Shown here: positions 9,589 through 21,750 of the stretch, one piece after another
Layout: each line of letters begins with the position of its first letter
How positions within the stretch are numbered: the stretch's first letter is position 1
NCBI GenBank assembly: GCA_041613315.1
Contig: JBFJHJ010000012.1
Coordinates: forward strand, 1 to 64,000
Reading direction: 5' to 3'
DNA length: 64,000 bases
Source: Gemmatimonadales bacterium
GTDB taxonomy: Bacteria > Gemmatimonadota > Gemmatimonadetes > Gemmatimonadales > GWC2-71-9
Translations under genes and position numbers: made by a program
The notes under the pieces: generated by a model
The model's input: the letters and a program-made list of their open reading frames with translations, nothing else
Database searches by the model: none
Told to the model about the DNA's origin: nothing

Positions 9589-10775
9589 GCCGAGACAGCC
9601 GACGCCTGGGGCGCCTCCCGGCCTATGCGGTGGCGGAGCTCGCCGAGGCGAAGCGGCGCCTCGTGGCCCAGGGCATCGATGTGATCGATCTCGGCGCCGG
9701 AGATGCCGACGTTCCACCGCCCGAGGTCGCGGTGCGGGCCCTCGCCGAGGCAGCCGCGGATCCCGCCATGAGCCGGTATGCCTTTCAGGTGGGCCTTCCG
9801 GCGTTTCGTGAGGCGGCGGCCGGCTACATGCGTCGCCGCTTTGGCGTGACGCTCGATCCAACGGCCGAGATCCTGCCGCTCCTTGGCTCCAAGGAAGGCC
9901 TCGCCCATCTGCCGGCCGCCGTGGTGAACCCCGGCGAGGTGTGCGTGCTGCCCGATCCCGGGTACCCGGCCTACGTCGGGGGGGCCGTGCTGGCGGACGC
10001 GGAGATCGCGCGATATCCGCTCACCGCGGCGGGGGGGTTCTTGGTCGAGCTCGACCAGCTTCCCGCCGAGCGGCTCGACCGGGTGCGGTTGGTGTATGTG
10101 AATTATCCGAACAACCCCACGGCGGCGGTGGCGCCGCGGGAGTACTTGGAGCGTTTGGTGCAGTTGTGCCGCGATCGGGGGATCGTGATCGCCTACGACA
10201 ACCCGTACTGTGAGATCACGTTCGACGGTTATCGTGCGCCGAGCATTCTGGAGATCCCCGGCGCTCGCGACGTGGCGGTCGAGTTCCATTCGCTGTCGAA
10301 GAGCTTCTGCATGACGGGCTGGCGCCTCGCGTGGGCCGCTGGGAACGCCGAGCTCGTCGCAGCGCTGACCCGGGTCAAGACGTACGTGGACACGGGAGCG
10401 TTCTTGGCCATCCAGTACGCCGGGGCCCACGTGCTGGAGCGAGCGGCGGAGCTGGTGGAGCCGATCCGCCGGCGGTTTGCCGAGCGCCGCGATGCGGCGG
10501 TGGCGGCGCTGCGGGACACGGGGCTCGACTTCGCTGCGCCGCTGGCTACGATGTATCTCTGGATTCCGGTGCCGGAGGGGGTCTCCGCCCGGAGCGTCGC
10601 AGAAGACGTCCTCGAGCGCGAGGGCGTCATGGTGCTGCCGGGCCCGGCGTTCGGTCCCGGTGGCGAAGGTTATGTCCGCCTTGCACTCACCGTCGATTCC
10701 GGCCGCCTCGCCGAAGCCGCTCGGCGGATCGGGAACACGCTCCGGCGGCTCGCGGCCGCCGGCGCACGTTCCTAG
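9585..10775 (+). CDS. Class I/II PLP aminotransferase, LL-diaminopimelate aminotransferase-like
   Basis: GSKEG, DPGYP, NYPNNPT, SLSKSFCMTGWR PLP-lysine motif; GTGA coupling. Confidence 0.85.
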   Translation: MSRDSRRLGRLPAYAVAELAEAKRRLVAQGIDVIDLGAGDADVPPPEVAVRALAEAAADPAMSRYAFQVGLPAFREAAAGYMRRRFGVTLDPTAEILPLLGSKEGLAHLPAAVVNPGEVCVLPDPGYPAYVGGAVLADAEIARYPLTAAGGFLVELDQLPAERLDRVRLVYVNYPNNPTAAVAPREYLERLVQLCRDRGIVIAYDNPYCEITFDGYRAPSILEIPGARDVAVEFHSLSKSFCMTGWRLAWAAGNAELVAALTRVKTYVDTGAFLAIQYAGAHVLERAAELVEPIRRRFAERRDAAVAALRDTGLDFAAPLATMYLWIPVPEGVSARSVAEDVLEREGVMVLPGPAFGPGGEGYVRLALTVDSGRLAEAARRIGNTLRRLAAAGARS

Positions 10776-10794
10776 GTTCCGCCTCCCGCCTCCG

Positions 10795-11658
10795 GTGCGC
10801 GAGCGCGGCCGCCCACTGTGGGTGGCCGCGAGCGTCCTCGTCCACCTCGTCGCGGTCCTCGCGTTGGCGCGCATGGCCGGCCGCACCTTCGCCGTCTCGG
10901 AGACCACGCCATTTATCTTGCTCGAGCTAGGCCCGTCCGGCCGAGAGGTGGCGATGCCGGCCTACGCGTCGCCCGGCCAACGCGGCGCGAGCCAGGGCGG
11001 TCAGGGCCTGCGGGCGGACGAGCTGGTGGGCGAGCGCCTCGTCCCGGTCGCACCCACCACGCCGCGCGATTCGGTGATCCCGCTCCGGACCGACGAGATC
11101 GTGATGGTCGTGACCCGCGGGCCGGTGCGCTCCGACAGCGGGCCCGCCGGCGCGGAGGGCCCGCTCAGGACCGACCGGATCCTGGGCCCGGCGTACGGCG
11201 ATGGCCGGCTCTGGGTGCGGCCGTTCTTCGCGGCACTCGGCGTCGTGGGCCCCTCGCCCGACGCGGCCACGCACACGGCTCGCGTCGAGGCGGCGGTCCT
11301 GGAGCGGATGAAGGCGTTCATCGACACCATGCCGCGGGACAGCTTTGCCCTACCGCCGCCGCCGCGGTGGACCACGGACCTCGGCGGCAACACCTGGGGG
11401 ATCGACCGGAACTGGATCTACCTCGGCGACATTAAGCTTCCGACGGCACTACTGGCCCTGCTGCCGCTTCCGCAAGGGAACTACGACCAGGCGAAGGCGG
11501 CGCAGGAGCTCCAGCGGATGCGGGAAGACATCATCCAGGCCGCCCGACGCGCCGAGACCGCGGAGGAGTTCCGGAAGTACGTGGAGGAGCTCCGCAAACG
11601 GAAAGATGCCGAGCGCGAAGCAGCCCGAGCCGCGCAGCGGGACTCGGTGGTTCCGTAG
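10795..11658 (+). CDS. Hypothetical membrane-anchored protein (start uncertain)
   Basis: Single N-terminal TM helix LWVAASVLVHLVAVLAL; charged C-terminal helix; coding-like codon use. Confidence 0.6.
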   Translation: MRERGRPLWVAASVLVHLVAVLALARMAGRTFAVSETTPFILLELGPSGREVAMPAYASPGQRGASQGGQGLRADELVGERLVPVAPTTPRDSVIPLRTDEIVMVVTRGPVRSDSGPAGAEGPLRTDRILGPAYGDGRLWVRPFFAALGVVGPSPDAATHTARVEAAVLERMKAFIDTMPRDSFALPPPPRWTTDLGGNTWGIDRNWIYLGDIKLPTALLALLPLPQGNYDQAKAAQELQRMREDIIQAARRAETAEEFRKYVEELRKRKDAEREAARAAQRDSVVP

Positions 11659-11816: not shown

Positions 11817-12329
11817 ATGGCCACGCTGTTCGCCTACGGCACCCTCATGTGGGACAACGCCCTCGCCTCGTATCGCGGGCAGCACGCCCGGGCGGAGGGC
11901 ATGCGTCGGGCCTTCATCGGCCAATCCGAGCGCCGCTGGGGATCTCCCCGACATCCGTGTCCTCAGATCGGGCTGGTCGAGGGCGAGGGATGTGGCGGCG
12001 TGCTCTTCGACGTTCCTTCCGCCGACCGCCGCTACCTGTTTCGCAACCTCAAGCAGCGCGAGGGCGTGCCCCTGCGCTCGGTCCGTCTGCGGGACCACCG
12101 CGGAACGGTCATGCGGGCGCGGTGTTTTCTGCCCGACGCCGGCAGCCGCCGCTGGGAGGACGCCGAGGAGCTGCTCGAGGCGCTGCGGGCCGCGCGGGGC
12201 CTGGTGGGCACCGGGGCGGAGTACGTCCGCGCGATCGTACATGCGATGGAGCTGTGGCAGATCGACGATCCGGTGGTGACGCACATCTGGGAACGCATCC
12301 GGCACTGGGCCCCCAACCCGGTGACGTGA
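11817..12329 (+). CDS. ChaC-like gamma-glutamylcyclotransferase
   Basis: LFAYGTLMW GGCT motif; WGSPRHP; LKQRE putative catalytic Glu; G..GTGAEY. Confidence 0.8.
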   Translation: MATLFAYGTLMWDNALASYRGQHARAEGMRRAFIGQSERRWGSPRHPCPQIGLVEGEGCGGVLFDVPSADRRYLFRNLKQREGVPLRSVRLRDHRGTVMRARCFLPDAGSRRWEDAEELLEALRAARGLVGTGAEYVRAIVHAMELWQIDDPVVTHIWERIRHWAPNPVT

Positions 12330-12356
12330 AACGACGACACGGAACACGGACTACGG

Positions 12357-13556
12357 ATGACGGACACGATCTCTGGCACGTTGGAGCAGCGCCGCGACGC
12401 CGCTTCCTTCCCGTTCGGCGTCCGACCGGAGGCGGCGGCGCCCGATCGGGACGGTCGAGGGCCGGACACCATGAACCGGCTCCTGCTCCACGCGGCGCGC
12501 TACCATGCCCGGGACGCGGTCTCGCTGCGGTGGGAGGAGGGGCGCACGGAGTGGGGATGGCAGCCGATGCCGGATTGGCGCGCGGACCGGTACACGGTAC
12601 GGGCGGCGCTGGTCCTCCGTCAGCGGCTCGAGGTCGCCGACGGCGAGACGGTGGCGCTGTGGCTGCCGCTGAGCACGGAATGGCCGATCGTCGAGCGGGC
12701 GGTGTGGTCCATCGGCGCCGTGAGTGTGCCGGTCTGGCCCGAGTGGGATCTCGAGCGCGTCGCGCAGGTCATGGCCGATGCGCAGCCGGCGGTGCTGGTT
12801 GCCCCGGATTGGGAAGCGGTGCGGCAGCTCCGCGTGATCGGCGGGCTCCCCGAATCCGTGCGAGGCATCGTGCTGTGGCGGGGGGCGCCGGACGACGCGC
12901 AGGACGCCCTACCGTTCGCCCAATTCCTGGACTATGGGGGCGTGCTGGACACCGCGGAGCGGGCAGCCATGTGGCGCACCCTCACGCGGGGTCTCTCGCC
13001 GGACACGGCCGTGAGCCGTGAATACACCTCGAGCGGCCCGCTCCAGTGGGGCAAGCTGGATCACCGGATGCTCGTGGCTGCCGTGGAGCGGATGCTGCGG
13101 CGCTTTCCGGCTCATGCCGGGCGGGTCCAGGTGCTCACCACCGAGCGCCCGCACCCCACGCTGCGCGCGCTGATCTTCGCCGGCTGGGTGGACGGCCTCA
13201 CCCGGACGATCTTCGCCGCGACGTCCGAGGCCCAGGAACATCTCGAGGCGTTCGTCCCGGATCTCGTCGTGGGTCCGGCGGAATCGCTCGGCAGCGTATT
13301 GCGTACGGTGCAAGCTGCTGCGGCGGCCCCGGAGCCGCCGGCGCCGCGCCGCGGACTGCTCGCCCGGCTGCTTGGGGTGCGGAGCGGTGACGACACCGCT
13401 CCGCGGCGTCGGCCACGGGCGCCGACGGTGCGGGTGCTTCTGACCGACGGCGCGCCGCCCGCCCTGGACGACGCGACCGTCACTATGCAGTTTGTGGAAG
13501 AGTCGGAGATCGACGTGTTCCCGATTGGCCCCGGCATGGCCGGCCAGGGTCAGTGA
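12357..13556 (+). CDS. Degenerate AMP-binding (long-chain acyl-CoA ligase-like) protein, N-terminal domain only
   Basis: GETVALWLPLSTEW..VERAVWSIGAVSVPVW matches FadD N-terminal pattern; P-loop degenerate (YTSSGPLQWG); no GYG.TE or TGD motifs. Confidence 0.6.
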   Translation: MTDTISGTLEQRRDAASFPFGVRPEAAAPDRDGRGPDTMNRLLLHAARYHARDAVSLRWEEGRTEWGWQPMPDWRADRYTVRAALVLRQRLEVADGETVALWLPLSTEWPIVERAVWSIGAVSVPVWPEWDLERVAQVMADAQPAVLVAPDWEAVRQLRVIGGLPESVRGIVLWRGAPDDAQDALPFAQFLDYGGVLDTAERAAMWRTLTRGLSPDTAVSREYTSSGPLQWGKLDHRMLVAAVERMLRRFPAHAGRVQVLTTERPHPTLRALIFAGWVDGLTRTIFAATSEAQEHLEAFVPDLVVGPAESLGSVLRTVQAAAAAPEPPAPRRGLLARLLGVRSGDDTAPRRRPRAPTVRVLLTDGAPPALDDATVTMQFVEESEIDVFPIGPGMAGQGQ

Positions 13557-13613
13557 GGCAACGACGTTGGGCCCGACTGGCTCGTCAGGCCCGAACACCA
13601 GAGGGAGGTTTTC

Positions 13614-15488
13614 ATGAGTGACTTGCTCGCCACGGCCACGAAAACCGCCGCGAGTCTCGCGTGGCGCACCTTCCAGAGCGTCAACACCCGCATCCCCGAC
13701 AGCCCCTCCATCCAGCCCACGTGGGCGCCGGGGCCGCTCCCGAAGAGCTACGAGCGCACCAAGCCGCCCCTTGGATGGCCGCGAGAGACCGATTCGCTGT
13801 GCCCTCGGTGCGTCATCGAGGTGCGTGACGCGATCATCGCGGGTGAACGGGACATCTCCGAGTTCGTGGAACGGCGGGCAGGCGAGGTCCGCGCGCGCAT
13901 CAACGAGGAGCACGGCAAGCTGATCATCCGCAAGACGTGCCCGACGCATGGGGACTTCTGGGACACGCTCTCGATCGATCCGCAGTTCAGCGCGCTCCTC
14001 GAGCGGCGATTCTTTGGTCGCGACTACCGGACGGCGGCGGACGCGCACGTCCACCGGCATGGCACCTCCACGATCCGCTACGGTCGCGGGGCGGTGCTGA
14101 CGATCGACCTGACGAACCGCTGCAACATGATGTGCAACCCGTGCTTCATGGATGCGAACCAGGTCGGGTACGTGCACGAGCTGACGCTGGACGACATCAA
14201 GCAGATCCTCGATGACTCGATCTCCTTCAAGCCCCGGCGCCAGATGTCGGTGCAGTTCTCGGGCGGCGAGCCCACGATGTCGCCGCACTTCCTCGAGGCG
14301 TGCCGCTACGCGAAGGAAGTCGGGTATTACACCGTGCAGGCGGCGACCAACGGGTTGCGCTTCGCGCTCGAGCCGGAGTTCGCCTATCAGGCGAAAGAAG
14401 CCGGCCTCAACATGGCCTACTTCCAGTTCGACGGGGTGACCAACGAGGCGAACGCGCACCGGCAGATCAGCAACCTGTTCGATGCCAAGTGGCTCGCCGT
14501 CGAGCGGATGCACGATGCCGGGATCGACATCTCACCGGTCACGACCGTGGTGAACACGATCAACGACCAACAGGTGGGCCCGATCCTCGACTTCGTGATC
14601 GAGCACTCGGACAAGATGGGCGCCGTGTCGTTCCAGCCGGTGTCGTTCACCGGCCGCGACGAGGAGATCAGCGACGCCGACCGGCACGCCCAGCGCTACA
14701 CGATCTCCCACCTGGCGCACGCGTTCGCGGAGTACTTCGACGGGAAGATCGATCCGTACCGTGACTGGTACCCGCTCGGGGCCATGGGGGCGTTCACCTG
14801 GCTGGCCGATCACCTCCGCGGGCCCGACATCGACTTCGGCGGCGTGTCCTGTTCGTGTCACCCGAACTGCGGTGCCAGCGTGGTGTTGGCGCTCAATTCG
14901 AAGACCAAGGCGTGGGGGCCCCTGACGGAGTTCTTCAACGTCGAGCAGTTCGTGAAGGACATCAACGTCATCACGGATACGTCGCGGGGCCAGGGCTTGA
15001 GCAAGGCGCAGGCGGGGCTGGCGCTGCTCCGCAACCTCGACCAGCGCAAGATGCCCTCGGGCCTCACGGTCAAGAAGTTCCTCCAGCTTGCCAACCGGAA
15101 GATGGGTGGCGCGCTGGACGAGAAGGCCGACCGCGACACGAAGGAGTGGAACCTGATGTGGATTGGCGGGATGTGGTTCCAGGATCTCTGGACCTATGAC
15201 TTCCGCCGCACCGAGATGTGCGTGATTCCCTACGCCACCCAGGAGGGGGAGATCTCCTTCTGCGCGTACAACACGGGCGCCGGGTGGCGGAAGATCGTGG
15301 AGAACATGCACATGGTCGCGAAGACGAGCGACTGGTTCAAGGACAAGGGCCGGCACCAGATCTATGCCGGGAACCGGCCGATGGACCTGAAGCCGGGGAC
15401 GCGCGCGCTGCCGGTCGTCGAGAAGCGCCAGCTCGCCGTGCCGCACGCGGGGACCGTCCAGTTGGGCTCGGGCTGCGGCTGCCACTGA
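13614..15488 (+). CDS. Radical SAM enzyme of the tetraether synthase (Tes / GDGT-MAS / MJ0619) family, bacterial clade
   Basis: SLCPRC...KTCPTHG N-terminal metal site; DLTNRCNMMCNPCF rSAM motif; SGGEPT; QFDG; FQPVSFTGR; CSCHPNCG; C-terminal CVIPY...ISFCAYN; RBS GGGAGG. Confidence 0.85.
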   Translation: MSDLLATATKTAASLAWRTFQSVNTRIPDSPSIQPTWAPGPLPKSYERTKPPLGWPRETDSLCPRCVIEVRDAIIAGERDISEFVERRAGEVRARINEEHGKLIIRKTCPTHGDFWDTLSIDPQFSALLERRFFGRDYRTAADAHVHRHGTSTIRYGRGAVLTIDLTNRCNMMCNPCFMDANQVGYVHELTLDDIKQILDDSISFKPRRQMSVQFSGGEPTMSPHFLEACRYAKEVGYYTVQAATNGLRFALEPEFAYQAKEAGLNMAYFQFDGVTNEANAHRQISNLFDAKWLAVERMHDAGIDISPVTTVVNTINDQQVGPILDFVIEHSDKMGAVSFQPVSFTGRDEEISDADRHAQRYTISHLAHAFAEYFDGKIDPYRDWYPLGAMGAFTWLADHLRGPDIDFGGVSCSCHPNCGASVVLALNSKTKAWGPLTEFFNVEQFVKDINVITDTSRGQGLSKAQAGLALLRNLDQRKMPSGLTVKKFLQLANRKMGGALDEKADRDTKEWNLMWIGGMWFQDLWTYDFRRTEMCVIPYATQEGEISFCAYNTGAGWRKIVENMHMVAKTSDWFKDKGRHQIYAGNRPMDLKPGTRALPVVEKRQLAVPHAGTVQLGSGCGCH

Positions 15489-15514
15489 CCGAGTCCCGAT
15501 GGCGTGAAAGCGAC

Positions 15515-15538
15515 ACGGGCGGCTGCAAGGCCGCCCGT
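15515..15538 (+). terminator. Hairpin after the Tes-like gene (between convergent genes)
   Basis: ACGGGCGGC-tgcaag-GCCGCCCGT stem. Confidence 0.5.
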
Positions 15539-15633
15539 TCTCGTTCGCCTGTCTGTGGGGAGTGATATGTGAAGGGTGATACCTGAGGCACGACTTCCCA
15601 CCGCTCACGTTTCACTCGTACCTCGTTCACCTC

Positions 15634-16968: not shown

Positions 16969-17166
16969 GGTCCTCCATGGTGCCGGTACCACAGGATCGC
17001 GCGGGTCGTCGCCCGCTACGCGACCAGTCCCGGCGCGGCCGACCGGACGTCGGGCGCGACGTGATCGCCCAAAGGTAAACCGGGCACCGCCATTTGGGCA
17101 CACGCTCCGCCCTTGCGCGGAGGCGCTTACGACCGCACGTTGTGGGGATCCATATCGACAGGTGTA

Positions 17167-18744
17167 ATGCCAGTGAGCCGACTTCGCATCGGTATCCTCG
17201 ACCTCGTCACCAAGGGTCCGACCAAGGCGTTTTACGCCCGGGTGATGCATGCCAATCTCGCGAGCATCATGCCTCAGGCCGTCGCCGTCTGGTGCGAGGA
17301 AGCCGGCCACGACGTCACCTTCGTGTGCTTCACCGGATTCGAAGACCTGCTGGAAGAGCTCCCCGATGACATGGATGTCCTGTTCATCGGGGCGTTCACG
17401 CAGGCGGCCCAGCTCTCCTACGCGCTGAGCAACATCTTCCGCCGACGTGGGGCGGTGACGGTGTTGGGTGGGCCGCACGCCCGCTGCTATCCGGATGATG
17501 CTCGGAAGTACTTCGACTATGTGGTGGGATTCACCGACAAGACGGTGATCCAGGACATTCTCCAGGACTGCAGCGCGCATCGCCCGTACGGCGTCCACCT
17601 GAGCGCGGATCGGCAACCGCAGCACCTGCCCGGGGTCCGGGAGCGATGGAAGTTCATCGCCCCGACCATCGCCAAGGCGCCGACCAAGCTCAAAGGCGTG
17701 CCGATGATCGGCAGCCTCGGCTGTCCCTACACCTGCGAGTTCTGCATCGACTCGGTGGTGGACTACCAGCCGATGAGCTACGACCAGATCCGGGAAGATC
17801 TGCGGTTCCTCAACCAGCGGATGTCGCACGCGTGGGTCGGCTGGCACGACCCCAACTTCGGCGTGCGGTTCAACGACTACATGACGGCCATCGAGGACGC
17901 GATCCGTCCCGGCTCGATCACCTTCGCGGCCGAGAGCAGCCTCTCGCTCCTCTCGGAGTCCAACGTGAAGCGGATGCGGGCCGCGGGCTTCAAGGTCCTC
18001 CTGCCCGGGGTCGAGTCCTGGTTCTCCCTAGGGAACAAGTCGAAGACCGGCCGCAAACAGGGGCTCGACAAGGTGGCCCAAGTCTCGGACCACGTGAACA
18101 TGCTGCTGGAGCACGTGTCGTACGTACAGGCGAACTTCGTGGTCGGCCTGGACGTGGATGAGGGCGACGAGCCGTTCGAGCTCACCAAACGCTTCATCGA
18201 CCGAACGCCCGGAGCGTTCCCCGGCTATTCCTTGCTCTCGGCCTTCGGCGAAGCGGCGCCCCTCAACCTCGAGTTCCAACGCGACGGCCGGGTGCTGCCG
18301 TTCCCGTTCCACTTCCTGAACAACAACCAGGCGATGAACGTCCGGCCCAAGCATTACGCGTGGCCGGATTTCTACGACCGCGTCATCGATCTCACGAAGT
18401 ACTCGTTCTCGTGGCGGGCGATCTACCGTCGAGCCCGGGCGACGCAACGCGGGTTCGCCACCTGGATGAATGTCATCCGCGCGGTCTCGTCGGAGGGCTT
18501 CGGGCGCATCAAGTACTTCCGGAAGGTGCGGCGCCTGCTCGACGAGGATCGCCAGTTCCGGGCATTCTTCGAGGGCGAGGCGACCGAGATCCCGGCCTTC
18601 TTCGTCGACCGGGTGAAGCGGGACCTGGGGCACCTGTGGCCTCACCTGCCGCCGGGCGCGCTACACCACGATCCCCTGGCGTACCTGAAGAAGACCCGCG
18701 CTCAGGCGCAGCTCGGGACCACCCCGGCGGCGTCGCTGGCGTAG
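17167..18744 (+). CDS. Cobalamin-binding-domain radical SAM protein
   Basis: N-terminal Rossmann-like region with VLGGPHA; SLGCPYTCEFC; GVES; NFVVGLD. Confidence 0.8.
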   Translation: MPVSRLRIGILDLVTKGPTKAFYARVMHANLASIMPQAVAVWCEEAGHDVTFVCFTGFEDLLEELPDDMDVLFIGAFTQAAQLSYALSNIFRRRGAVTVLGGPHARCYPDDARKYFDYVVGFTDKTVIQDILQDCSAHRPYGVHLSADRQPQHLPGVRERWKFIAPTIAKAPTKLKGVPMIGSLGCPYTCEFCIDSVVDYQPMSYDQIREDLRFLNQRMSHAWVGWHDPNFGVRFNDYMTAIEDAIRPGSITFAAESSLSLLSESNVKRMRAAGFKVLLPGVESWFSLGNKSKTGRKQGLDKVAQVSDHVNMLLEHVSYVQANFVVGLDVDEGDEPFELTKRFIDRTPGAFPGYSLLSAFGEAAPLNLEFQRDGRVLPFPFHFLNNNQAMNVRPKHYAWPDFYDRVIDLTKYSFSWRAIYRRARATQRGFATWMNVIRAVSSEGFGRIKYFRKVRRLLDEDRQFRAFFEGEATEIPAFFVDRVKRDLGHLWPHLPPGALHHDPLAYLKKTRAQAQLGTTPAASLA

Positions 18745-19469: not shown

Positions 19470-19588
19470 GTGGGTCTCCAGGTCGGTGTGGCACGGGCCC
19501 GTCGCGGCCGGTTCTCACCCACGCCTCGGGGGGCGGAAGACAGAGCGAGGCCGCATCCGGCGGGCGGAGCGGCCCCGGTGAGACGGGA

Positions 19589-19678
19589 CGGAGAGGGGGG
19601 GATTCGAACCCCCGATAGGGTTTTTGACCCTATAACGGTTTAGCAAACCGCCGCCTTCAGCCGCTCGGCCACCTCTCC
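19589..19678 (-). tRNA. tRNA-Ser(GCT)
   Basis: Reverse complement GGAGAGG...GCGGT-TTGCTAA-ACCGT, long variable arm, GGTTCGAATCC, CCTCTCC-G; CCA not encoded. Confidence 0.95.
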
Positions 19679-19680
19679 AA

Positions 19681-21666: not shown

Positions 21667-21750
21667 CGGAGGGCGAGGGATTCGAACCCCCAAGGGCTTG
21701 CGCCCGGCGGTTTTCAAGACCGCTGCCTTACCAGTTAGGTCTAGCCCTCC
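21667..21750 (-). tRNA. tRNA-Ser(TGA)
   Basis: Reverse complement GGAGGGC...GCGGT-CTTGAAA-ACCGC, variable arm GGGCGCAAGCCC, GGTTCGAATCC, GCCCTCC-G. Confidence 0.92.

What the first reader, a model, noticed from the sequence alone, without database searches (positions are those of the whole stretch)
11817..15488. Bacterial tetraether-synthase (Tes/GDGT-MAS)-like radical SAM in a three-gene unit with a degenerate acyl-CoA ligase and a ChaC-like enzyme
Seen: the 624-aa rSAM has an N-terminal CxxC...CxxH site, the CxxxCxxC motif, CxCHPxCG and a C-terminal C...FC(AYN). It follows two same-strand genes at short spacing (27 and 57 nt). Established: this cysteine architecture is that of archaeal MJ0619/Tes, which joins lipid tails by C-C coupling to make membrane-spanning lipids; bacterial homologs (e.g. 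in Acidobacteria) are candidates for branched-GDGT or diabolic-acid-type lipids, and most brGDGT producers are unknown. Inference: this probable gemmatimonad may make tail-to-tail-linked lipids, with the neighbouring acyl-binding protein as an uncharacterised partner.
Basis: partly seen in the sequence, partly recalled or inferred. Interest (0 to 1): 0.82.

Follow-up and report, generated by a model that had tools for sequence, protein, structure and literature searches.

The report
Tes-like lipid enzyme with dedicated partners
A marine bacterium carries a diverged relative of the archaeal enzyme that welds two lipid tails together, packaged with a catalytically dead fatty-acid-ligase domain and a glutamyl-cleaving enzyme, which gives a concrete but untested gene set for how some bacteria may make membrane-spanning lipids.

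Summary
The three genes and spacings are real. The 624-aa radical SAM protein has the Tes/GDGT-MAS fold (Z 42, rmsd 2.1-2.2 A to 7TOL/7TOM). It keeps the rubredoxin site, the SAM cluster and the C-terminal-cluster residues, but it is not canonical Tes: it scores 304 against a 450-bit cut-off, lacks the N-terminal auxiliary-cluster cysteines and falls in a separate bacterial clade that is common in Acidobacteriota. The unit is conserved. The dead acyl-CoA-ligase domain flanks 38 of 45 members of one sub-branch and 0 of 35 outside it, was never found without the enzyme in the genomes sampled, and is fused to it in four protein clusters. The ChaC-like gene flanks 25 of 45; glutathione synthetase was not found in 5 of 5 other carriers. 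An HpnR-like B12 radical SAM gene adjoins the unit in all six other carriers sampled from the phylum. Best reading (0.55): tail-to-tail C-C coupling to ester-linked, diabolic-acid-type lipids. No Ger-type ether enzyme was found and nothing is tested biochemically. Bacterial Tes homologues are a published candidate (2022); I found the partner genes in no paper. This scan noted the same operon earlier on other DNA.

The parts
11817..12329 (+). ChaC-like gamma-glutamylcyclotransferase-fold protein, 170 aa; keeps Y7-G8-T9 loop, E82 and Y136; substrate loop changed (R40-W41 for His39-Arg40 of human ChaC2); invariant C48 and C59
   Evidence: PF04752 46.5 bits over cut-off 21; profile hits human ChaC2 at E 9e-8; conservation in 22 sequences; residue roles from PMC7022552 passages
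12357..13556 (+). Truncated, catalytically dead derivative of a long-chain acyl-CoA synthetase (N-terminal ANL domain only), 399 aa; start codon uncertain
   Evidence: Partial PF00501; model pLDDT 89.5 matches about 290-420 columns of acyl-CoA synthetases; 0 of 48 homologues have the TSG(T/S)TG P-loop or G(Y/W)GxTE motif that the intact paralogue on C1 has
13603..13608 (+). Shine-Dalgarno-like GGGAGG 5 nt before the radical SAM start
   Evidence: read from the sequence
13614..15488 (+). Tes/GDGT-MAS-like radical SAM enzyme, 624 aa, bacterial clade B (sub-branch B3)
   Evidence: NF045702 303.6 bits, below 450; 7TOL E 1e-59; fold Z 42.5; trees
13614..13781 (+). Clade-B N-terminal extension (residues 1-56) with an amphipathic helix 2-24; the ligase-like domain joins here in the fusion proteins
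   Evidence: model; hydrophobic moment 0.38-0.44; fusions; structural match to 7TOL starts at residue 55
13800..13949 (+). Rubredoxin-like site C63, C66, C109, H112 (MJ0619 C9, C12, C33, H36)
   Evidence: ligands from PMC9433317
14040..14084 (+). Position of the missing N-terminal auxiliary [4Fe-4S] cluster, replaced by a His-rich HxHG stretch
   Evidence: alignment; CxxxCGxCxxH in 46 of 50 clade A and 0 of 116 clade B; HxHG in 67 of 72 B1-B4
14121..14144 (+). Radical SAM CxxxCxxC motif (C170, C174, C177)
14850..14870 (+). CxCHPxC loop: C419 aligns with MJ0619 C338; C413+C415 pair is typical of intact clade B
   Evidence: both Cys in 65 of 72 B1-B4, 3 of 50 clade A, 0 of 44 B5
15171..15263 (+). 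C-terminal cluster region: M520 (=M439), C536, Y540 (=Y459), C550
   Evidence: mapping; conservation; roles of M439 and Y459 from PMC9433317
15515..15538 (+). GC-rich hairpin after the last gene, facing the convergent gltX; possible terminator without a U-run
   Evidence: z -3.5 for 15489-15560; not called by the terminator scan

Best explanation
The radical SAM protein works like Tes on bacterial phospholipids. A 5'-deoxyadenosyl radical removes H from the end of one acyl tail, the radical is parked on a sulfur of the C-terminal [4Fe-4S] cluster, and a second SAM-derived radical couples a second tail to it. The product is an ester-linked membrane-spanning (iso-)diabolic-acid-type lipid. The surface N-terminal cluster is dispensable or replaced. 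The dead ligase domain is a dedicated non-catalytic subunit, most likely binding or presenting lipid or docking the enzyme at the membrane. The ChaC-like enzyme cleaves a gamma-glutamyl amide that is probably not home-made glutathione and is an optional helper. In relatives an HpnR-like B12 enzyme probably methylates the tails. Shown: fold, residues, clade, linkage, fusion. Inferred: substrate, product and every partner role.
For: Structure: 470-472 residues align to 7TOL/7TOM at Z 42, next fold Z 21; TM 0.88. All residues at the coupling centre are kept here and in 68-70 of 72 B1-B4 proteins. MJ0619 binds E. coli phospholipids, and the lost cluster is on the surface with no known role (PMC9433317). 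Amphipathic helices 443-456 and 486-496 are kept. Partners derive from lipid-handling families: a long-chain acyl-CoA synthetase and an HpnR-like enzyme whose genomes mostly lack a squalene-hopene cyclase (found in 1 of 5). Clade B is common in Acidobacteriota (153 of 251 genomes Tes-like, only 37 over the cut-off; 38 of 38 fetched sub-cut-off proteins intact clade B), a phylum that makes iso-diabolic acid with no Mss homologue (PMC13159169).
Against: No bacterial Tes homologue has been shown active in the papers read (PMC11868695; search 100). Identity to MJ0619 is only 28-31%, one metal site is lost, and H440 next to the labile Met is W521. I found no report of membrane-spanning lipids in Gemmatimonadota. 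The unit is in only 7 of 151 genomes of the phylum. 98 of 251 Acidobacteriota genomes have no Tes-like match. The one cultured clade-B protein I could name (Terriglobus roseus) belongs to a sub-branch that has lost all three C-terminal Cys (0 of 44), so it gives no support. A Thermoanaerobaculia MAG (L076) has clade B although the cultured member of that class makes no such lipid (Table S21). The lipid channel was not measured. A glutamyl-cleaving partner has no place in the Tes mechanism.
Confidence: 0.55

Rival explanations
1. Same radical start on a lipid tail but a different end: sulfur is left on the chain (thiol or thioether bridge), or the chain is cyclised or desaturated. The C-terminal cluster would be consumed and the ChaC-like enzyme would help resupply cysteine sulfur.
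For: Tes forms a C-S intermediate that is released as thiolated lipid (PMC9433317). Clade B has extra conserved C413/C415 beside the cluster and often a Cys-bearing tail (at least one Cys in 36 of 45). G000 has glutathione synthetase.
Against: ChaC is missing from 20 of 45 loci of the sub-branch. Glutathione synthetase was not found in 5 of 5 other carriers. Tail Cys also occur in 21 of 35 loci outside the sub-branch.
Confidence: 0.2
2. The unit makes or tailors a lipid-like small molecule, not a bulk membrane lipid: a gamma-glutamyl-protected intermediate is deprotected by the ChaC-like enzyme and held by the ligase-like domain for radical coupling and methylation.
For: Patchy distribution across phyla; altered ChaC substrate loop; two radical enzymes side by side in relatives.
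Against: No carrier protein, synthase, transporter or precursor peptide recurs in the 80 neighbourhoods. Most clade-B genes in Acidobacteriota stand without these partners.
Confidence: 0.12
3. A true branched-tetraether (brGDGT) synthase that joins iso-C15 diethers, as proposed for Solibacter.
For: Proposed for acidobacterial Tes homologues (PMC8941075; PMC10087280).
Against: The Ger/PlsA marker domain PF09989 was found in 0 of 6 carriers. The published Solibacter and Koribacter top hits (40-42% to archaeal Tes) look like clade A, by inference from identity. ElbD and Agps routes were not properly tested.
Confidence: 0.1
4. The neighbours are hitch-hikers of a transferred block and have nothing to do with the enzyme.
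For: Most of clade B lacks them; carriers are related through one sub-branch, so counts are not independent.
Against: Kept across three phyla at 20-50% identity, with invariant residues, overlapping or abutting stop/start codons, one fusion lineage, and no free-standing copy in 603 genomes sampled.
Confidence: 0.03

Closest known systems
Tetraether synthase Tes / GDGT-MAS (M. jannaschii MJ0619; PDB 7TOL, 7TOM; NF045702)
   Same: Overall fold, rubredoxin site, SAM cluster, C-terminal cluster Cys positions, labile Met, active-site Tyr.
   Different: No N-terminal auxiliary cluster motif; 55-residue N-terminal extension; C413/C415 pair; below the family cut-off; separate clade; dedicated partner genes.
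Bacterial Tes homologues listed by Zeng et al. 2022 (PMC8941075)
   Same: Same proposed role; the list includes Terriglobus, Koribacter, Chloracidobacterium and Minicystis loci, and Edaphobacter aggregans at 32% identity, which fits clade B by inference.
   Different: In the passages seen, no split into cluster-complete and cluster-short clades and no partner genes; 'Gemmat' gave 0 hits in the searched supplement.
Mss, membrane-spanning lipid synthase of Thermotoga and Thermoanaerobacter (PMC13159169)
   Same: Radical SAM tail-to-tail coupling of fatty acyl chains to diacids, the product predicted here.
   Different: Not a Tes homologue: Thermotoga maritima does not score with NF045702 at E 1e-30 in the control set.
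Long-chain acyl-CoA synthetases (ANL superfamily)
   Same: N-terminal domain fold and sequence, E 1e-32 to the intact paralogue.
   Different: No P-loop, no adenine motif, no C-terminal domain; cannot adenylate.
ChaC glutathione-specific gamma-glutamylcyclotransferase
   Same: Fold family, YG(S/T) loop, catalytic Glu position, Tyr144 equivalent.
   Different: His39-Arg40 replaced by Arg-Trp; two invariant Cys; most carriers tested lack glutathione synthetase.

Membership tests
Tes / GDGT-MAS (NF045702) | Score at or above the 450-bit cut-off | tested here: not met
   303.6 bits; the three archaeal control genomes pass
Tes / GDGT-MAS (NF045702) | Four-domain fold with radical SAM core | tested here: met
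   Z 42.5, rmsd 2.2 A, 470 aligned; model pLDDT 92.5
Tes / GDGT-MAS (NF045702) | Rubredoxin CxxC...CxxH site | tested here: met
   C63, C66, C109, H112
Tes / GDGT-MAS (NF045702) | N-terminal auxiliary [4Fe-4S] ligands C73, C77, C80 + His | tested here: not met
   No Cys between 110 and 169; 0 of 116 clade B
Tes / GDGT-MAS (NF045702) | C-terminal cluster (3 Cys + labile Met439) and Tyr459 | tested here: met
   C419, C536, C550, M520, Y540. The paper names only M439 and Y459; the three Cys are assigned from invariance in 50 of 50 clade A proteins
Tes / GDGT-MAS (NF045702) | Two hydrophobic lipid pockets | tested here: inconclusive
Tes / GDGT-MAS (NF045702) | Clusters with canonical Tes in a tree | tested here: not met
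   Clade B (117) versus clade A (50), support 1.0, midpoint root, MJ0619 itself not in the tree
Tes / GDGT-MAS (NF045702) | C(sp3)-C(sp3) coupling of lipid tails | not testable with these tools
   needs lipid analysis
TrsS radical SAM (seleno)protein (NF045646) | Score at or above 490 bits | tested here: not met
   196.8 bits
Active acyl-CoA synthetase (ANL) | P-loop, adenine motif, C-terminal domain | tested here: not met
   0 of 48 with P-loop or G(Y/W)GxTE; lengths 306-437 aa
ChaC | PF04752 over cut-off, YG(S/T) loop, catalytic Glu | tested here: met
ChaC | Glutathione as substrate | tested here: inconclusive
   loop residues differ; GshB in G000 but in 0 of 5 others; GshA 0 of 5; GCS2 family 3 of 5
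brGDGT pathway (Mss or Tes + Ger) | Ger/PlsA-type ether-forming enzyme in the genome | tested here: inconclusive
   PF09989 not found in G000 (83% complete) or 5 others (94-97%); ElbD and Agps not tested beyond

The most novel reading that the evidence does not exclude
This sub-branch is a self-contained, horizontally mobile cassette for methyl-branched membrane-spanning lipids: a three-metal-site Tes variant that needs a pseudo-ligase subunit, plus, in relatives, an HpnR-like B12 methylase that adds the extra mid-chain (C5/C6-type) methyl groups behind the brGDGT proxies. It would name both the coupling enzyme that Acidobacteriota lack on paper and the unknown methylase, and add Gemmatimonadota and Myxococcota to the producers.
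Probability: 0.2. Interest if true: 0.88.

Novelty: new variant of a known kind. Interest (0 to 1): 0.6.

Why it matters
Bacterial membrane-spanning lipids underlie widely used temperature and pH proxies, and their producers and enzymes are largely unknown: Acidobacteria make iso-diabolic acid without an Mss homologue (PMC13159169), and bacterial Tes homologues are untested. This finding splits those homologues into a canonical clade, an intact cluster-short clade and a degenerate one, and supplies a compact gene set (enzyme, accessory subunit, natural single-chain fusion, candidate methylase) that can be expressed and assayed directly. A dead ligase domain serving a radical SAM enzyme would also be a new kind of partnership.

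Tried and rejected
Terriglobus roseus P0127 as proof of an iso-diabolic-acid role: rejected, it has lost the C-terminal cluster Cys; that species has two listed homologues and I could not read the second. The window's own B12 radical SAM gene (17113-18744) as a fourth member: rejected, it occurs in 40 of 151 genomes and on other contigs in the other carriers; it is near the unit only here and in L012. A hopanoid role for the HpnR-like neighbour: weak, cyclase domain in 1 of 5 genomes and not in G000. A 1468-aa frame in L152 joining two radical SAM domains: single case with junk linker, read as a frameshift artefact, not counted as a fusion. Plasmid collection: only distant 24-27% hits. No sigma-70 promoter or T-tailed terminator at the ends. 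No RNA holder listed. Single-sequence search of the ChaC protein against PDB found nothing; the profile did. ESM Atlas returned only generic AMP-binding and ChaC clusters. Several recurrent 'clusters' were shadow frames; following them led to the HpnR-like gene. TrsS paper gave only a table row; PMC12042123 passages were not relevant.
Full report
OBSERVATION. The three ORFs, their 27- and 57-nt gaps and all named motifs are in the sequence. The window is contig C12 of an 83%-complete, 2.6-Mb genome. The nearest named relatives of the radical SAM protein are Gemmatimonadota MAG proteins at 81-84% identity, and the stretch is held by marine metagenome runs, four of one study. Contigs of three of those runs confirm the frames.

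THE ENZYME. Its best family is Tes (NF045702) at 303.6 bits, under the 450 cut-off. Its best solved relative is GDGT-MAS, E 1e-59. The model (pLDDT 92.5) aligns to 7TOL/7TOM over 470-472 residues at Z 42 and rmsd 2.1-2.2 A; the next fold scores Z 21. I mapped MJ0619 residues by eye on the alignment (chain offset 20, checked on C33, H36, C73, M439, Y459 named in PMC9433317). Kept: rubredoxin C63/C66/C109/H112, the SAM motif, C419, M520, C536, Y540, C550. Lost: the N-terminal auxiliary cluster, whose C73/C77/C80 align to H145/H149/S152. That cluster is on the surface and the paper says its role is unclear.

CLADES. From 612 profile hits I kept 483 near-full-length, 444 distinct, and 167 representatives at about 78% identity. 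The midpoint-rooted tree splits into clade A (50) and clade B (117, with one basal protein, P0132), support 1.0. The window protein was represented by L001 (82%) and added to the alignment afterwards; MJ0619 itself and an outgroup are not in the tree. Clade A holds the proteins over the Tes cut-off (17 of 32 scanned). CxxxCGxCxxH is in 46 of 50 A and 0 of 116 B. Sub-branches B1-B4 (72) keep the three C-terminal Cys in 68, Met in 70, Tyr in 70, and add a C413+C415 pair in 65 and HxHG in 67; B5 (44, enriched by my search with the Terriglobus roseus protein) has lost all three Cys. In a 251-genome sample of the phylum of an acidobacterial locus, 153 have a Tes-like match and 37 pass the cut-off. 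I fetched 38 of the higher-scoring sub-cut-off loci (35 genomes, not a random draw); all 38 are intact clade B and none has the ligase-like or ChaC gene in its flanks. Two further regions carry a clade A and a clade B gene 5-8 kb apart (L153, L154).

THE UNIT IS REAL. Of the best 80 GTDB loci (of 522 found), 36 have the ligase-like gene and 24 the ChaC gene by tblastn, in Gemmatimonadota, Acidobacteriota including Vicinamibacteria, and Myxococcota. On a tree of 79 of those loci plus the window (one partial locus dropped), one sub-branch of 45 (support 0.965) holds every case: ligase-like 38 of 45, ChaC 25 of 45, against 0 of 35 outside (two contig-edge fragments counted by hand; ChaC is inverted in L063; some loci have under 1.5 kb upstream). 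In 151 genomes of the window's phylum, 7 have the close enzyme (69% or more), the same 7 have the short ligase-like gene beside it (E 1e-93 or better; all other hits are 1e-34 or weaker, in frames of 600 aa or more), and 5 of the 7 have the ChaC gene, found nowhere else. In 201 genomes around a myxococcal locus, 12 have clade B and only the seed genome has the partner; in the 251 acidobacterial genomes none has it (8-13 candidates scored per genome). These samples overlap the 80 loci in part and kin are not independent. Four 90% clusters (895-922 aa, 76-82% identical to each other) fuse the ligase-like domain to the enzyme; they form one lineage next to loci whose two genes overlap or abut.

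THE PARTNERS. The 399-aa protein is the N-terminal domain of a long-chain acyl-CoA synthetase. None of 48 homologues has the P-loop or adenine motif, yet D198, T199, E201, A203, D279 and G280 are invariant, so it is a maintained pseudo-enzyme. The ChaC-like protein keeps the YG(S/T) loop, E82 at the place of human ChaC2 Glu74 and Y136, but has Arg-Trp for His39-Arg40. G000 has glutathione synthetase; five other carriers do not, nor GshA, so glutathione is a doubtful substrate. A fourth gene, absent from G000, is an HpnR-like B12 radical SAM protein (351 bits, cut-off 650). Close forms lie beside the unit in 14 of the 80 loci, all inside the sub-branch, and more distant BchE/HpnJ-like forms in 10 loci outside it. 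In the phylum sample the close form is in exactly the six other carriers, next to the unit (one copy has an internal stop). Only 1 of 5 of these genomes has a squalene-hopene cyclase domain.

MECHANISM. The coupling centre is intact and the neighbours come from lipid-handling families, so I favour Tes-type tail-to-tail coupling of acyl chains (0.55). No Ger/PlsA marker was found in 6 carriers, so an ester-linked diacid lipid is likelier than a tetraether. Rivals are sulfur insertion or other radical tailoring (0.2), a small-molecule pathway (0.12), a true brGDGT synthase (0.1) and chance linkage (0.03). All partner roles are inference; binding was not modelled. Against my reading: no bacterial homologue is proven, the unit is rare and patchy, 98 of 251 acidobacterial genomes have no homologue, and the only cultured clade-B protein I could name is degenerate.

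LITERATURE. PMC9433317: parts 1-4 of 9 of the text, passages, and supplement passages (one file unreadable). PMC8941075: passages and figure labels in a supplement (one file unreadable). PMC13159169: passages and part of Table S21, whose lipid columns I read from context. PMC13459092: passages and section 2.1. Passages only: bioRxiv 2022.04.07.487437, PMC11868695, PMC13274423, PMC10087280, PMC7022552, PMC11214058, PMC13188914, PMC12042123. Bacterial Tes homologues as candidates are in print since 2022. Searches found no paper on the cluster-short clade, the partner genes or Gemmatimonadota as producers; the library lacks most subscription journals and bioRxiv supplements. ANL motif names are recalled.

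VERDICT. It works like Tes by structure but is not a member by the family's own tests: a new variant of a known kind. Earlier notes of this scan reached a similar reading on other genomes, one for the same operon; my reading was formed before I saw them. Added here: the exclusive sub-branch linkage, the missing glutathione pathway, the degenerate B5 branch and the HpnR-like fourth gene. Interest 0.6.

Noticed in passing
L012:10067-11551 (+); L009:4505-6049 (-): HpnR-like B12 radical SAM family tied to the unit in relatives, mostly in genomes without a hopanoid cyclase; candidate lipid-tail methylase.
   Followed up: yes
P0127 and sub-branch B5: A large Tes-like sub-branch that keeps the SAM motif but has lost all C-terminal cluster Cys and the active-site Tyr (0 of 44); must do different chemistry or none.
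   Followed up: partly
window 17113-18744 (+): Conserved B12 radical SAM protein of no named family, in 40 of 151 genomes of the phylum; not part of the unit.
   Followed up: partly
L014:6501-7007, L012:5771-6064, L063:3486-3842: A small (about 100-130 aa) protein with no Pfam match lies just upstream of the unit in 9 of the 80 loci; not found in G000.
   Followed up: partly
L153 and L154: A canonical Tes gene and a clade-B gene lie 5-8 kb apart on the same strand; Koribacter's listed homologues Acid345_0793 and _0802 may be such a pair (unverified).
   Followed up: partly
L100 and L104: Two canonical-type Tes homologues have one in-frame TGA within the match; possible selenocysteine or broken genes.
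   Followed up: no
window 15474-15485: Disordered C-terminal tail ending CGCH; many relatives end in GCGTGCGCH-like tails.
   Followed up: partly
L003-L005, L013: A DedA/VTT membrane protein (PF09335) precedes the ligase-like gene in place of ChaC in four acidobacterial loci.
   Followed up: no
window 10711-11658 (+): ORF with no Pfam or NCBIfam match between the aminotransferase and ChaC; not found in any of the 80 loci; start uncertain.
   Followed up: no
window 19586-19679 and 21667-21750 (-): Two tRNA-Ser genes flank the glutaminyl-tRNA-synthetase-like gene.
   Followed up: no
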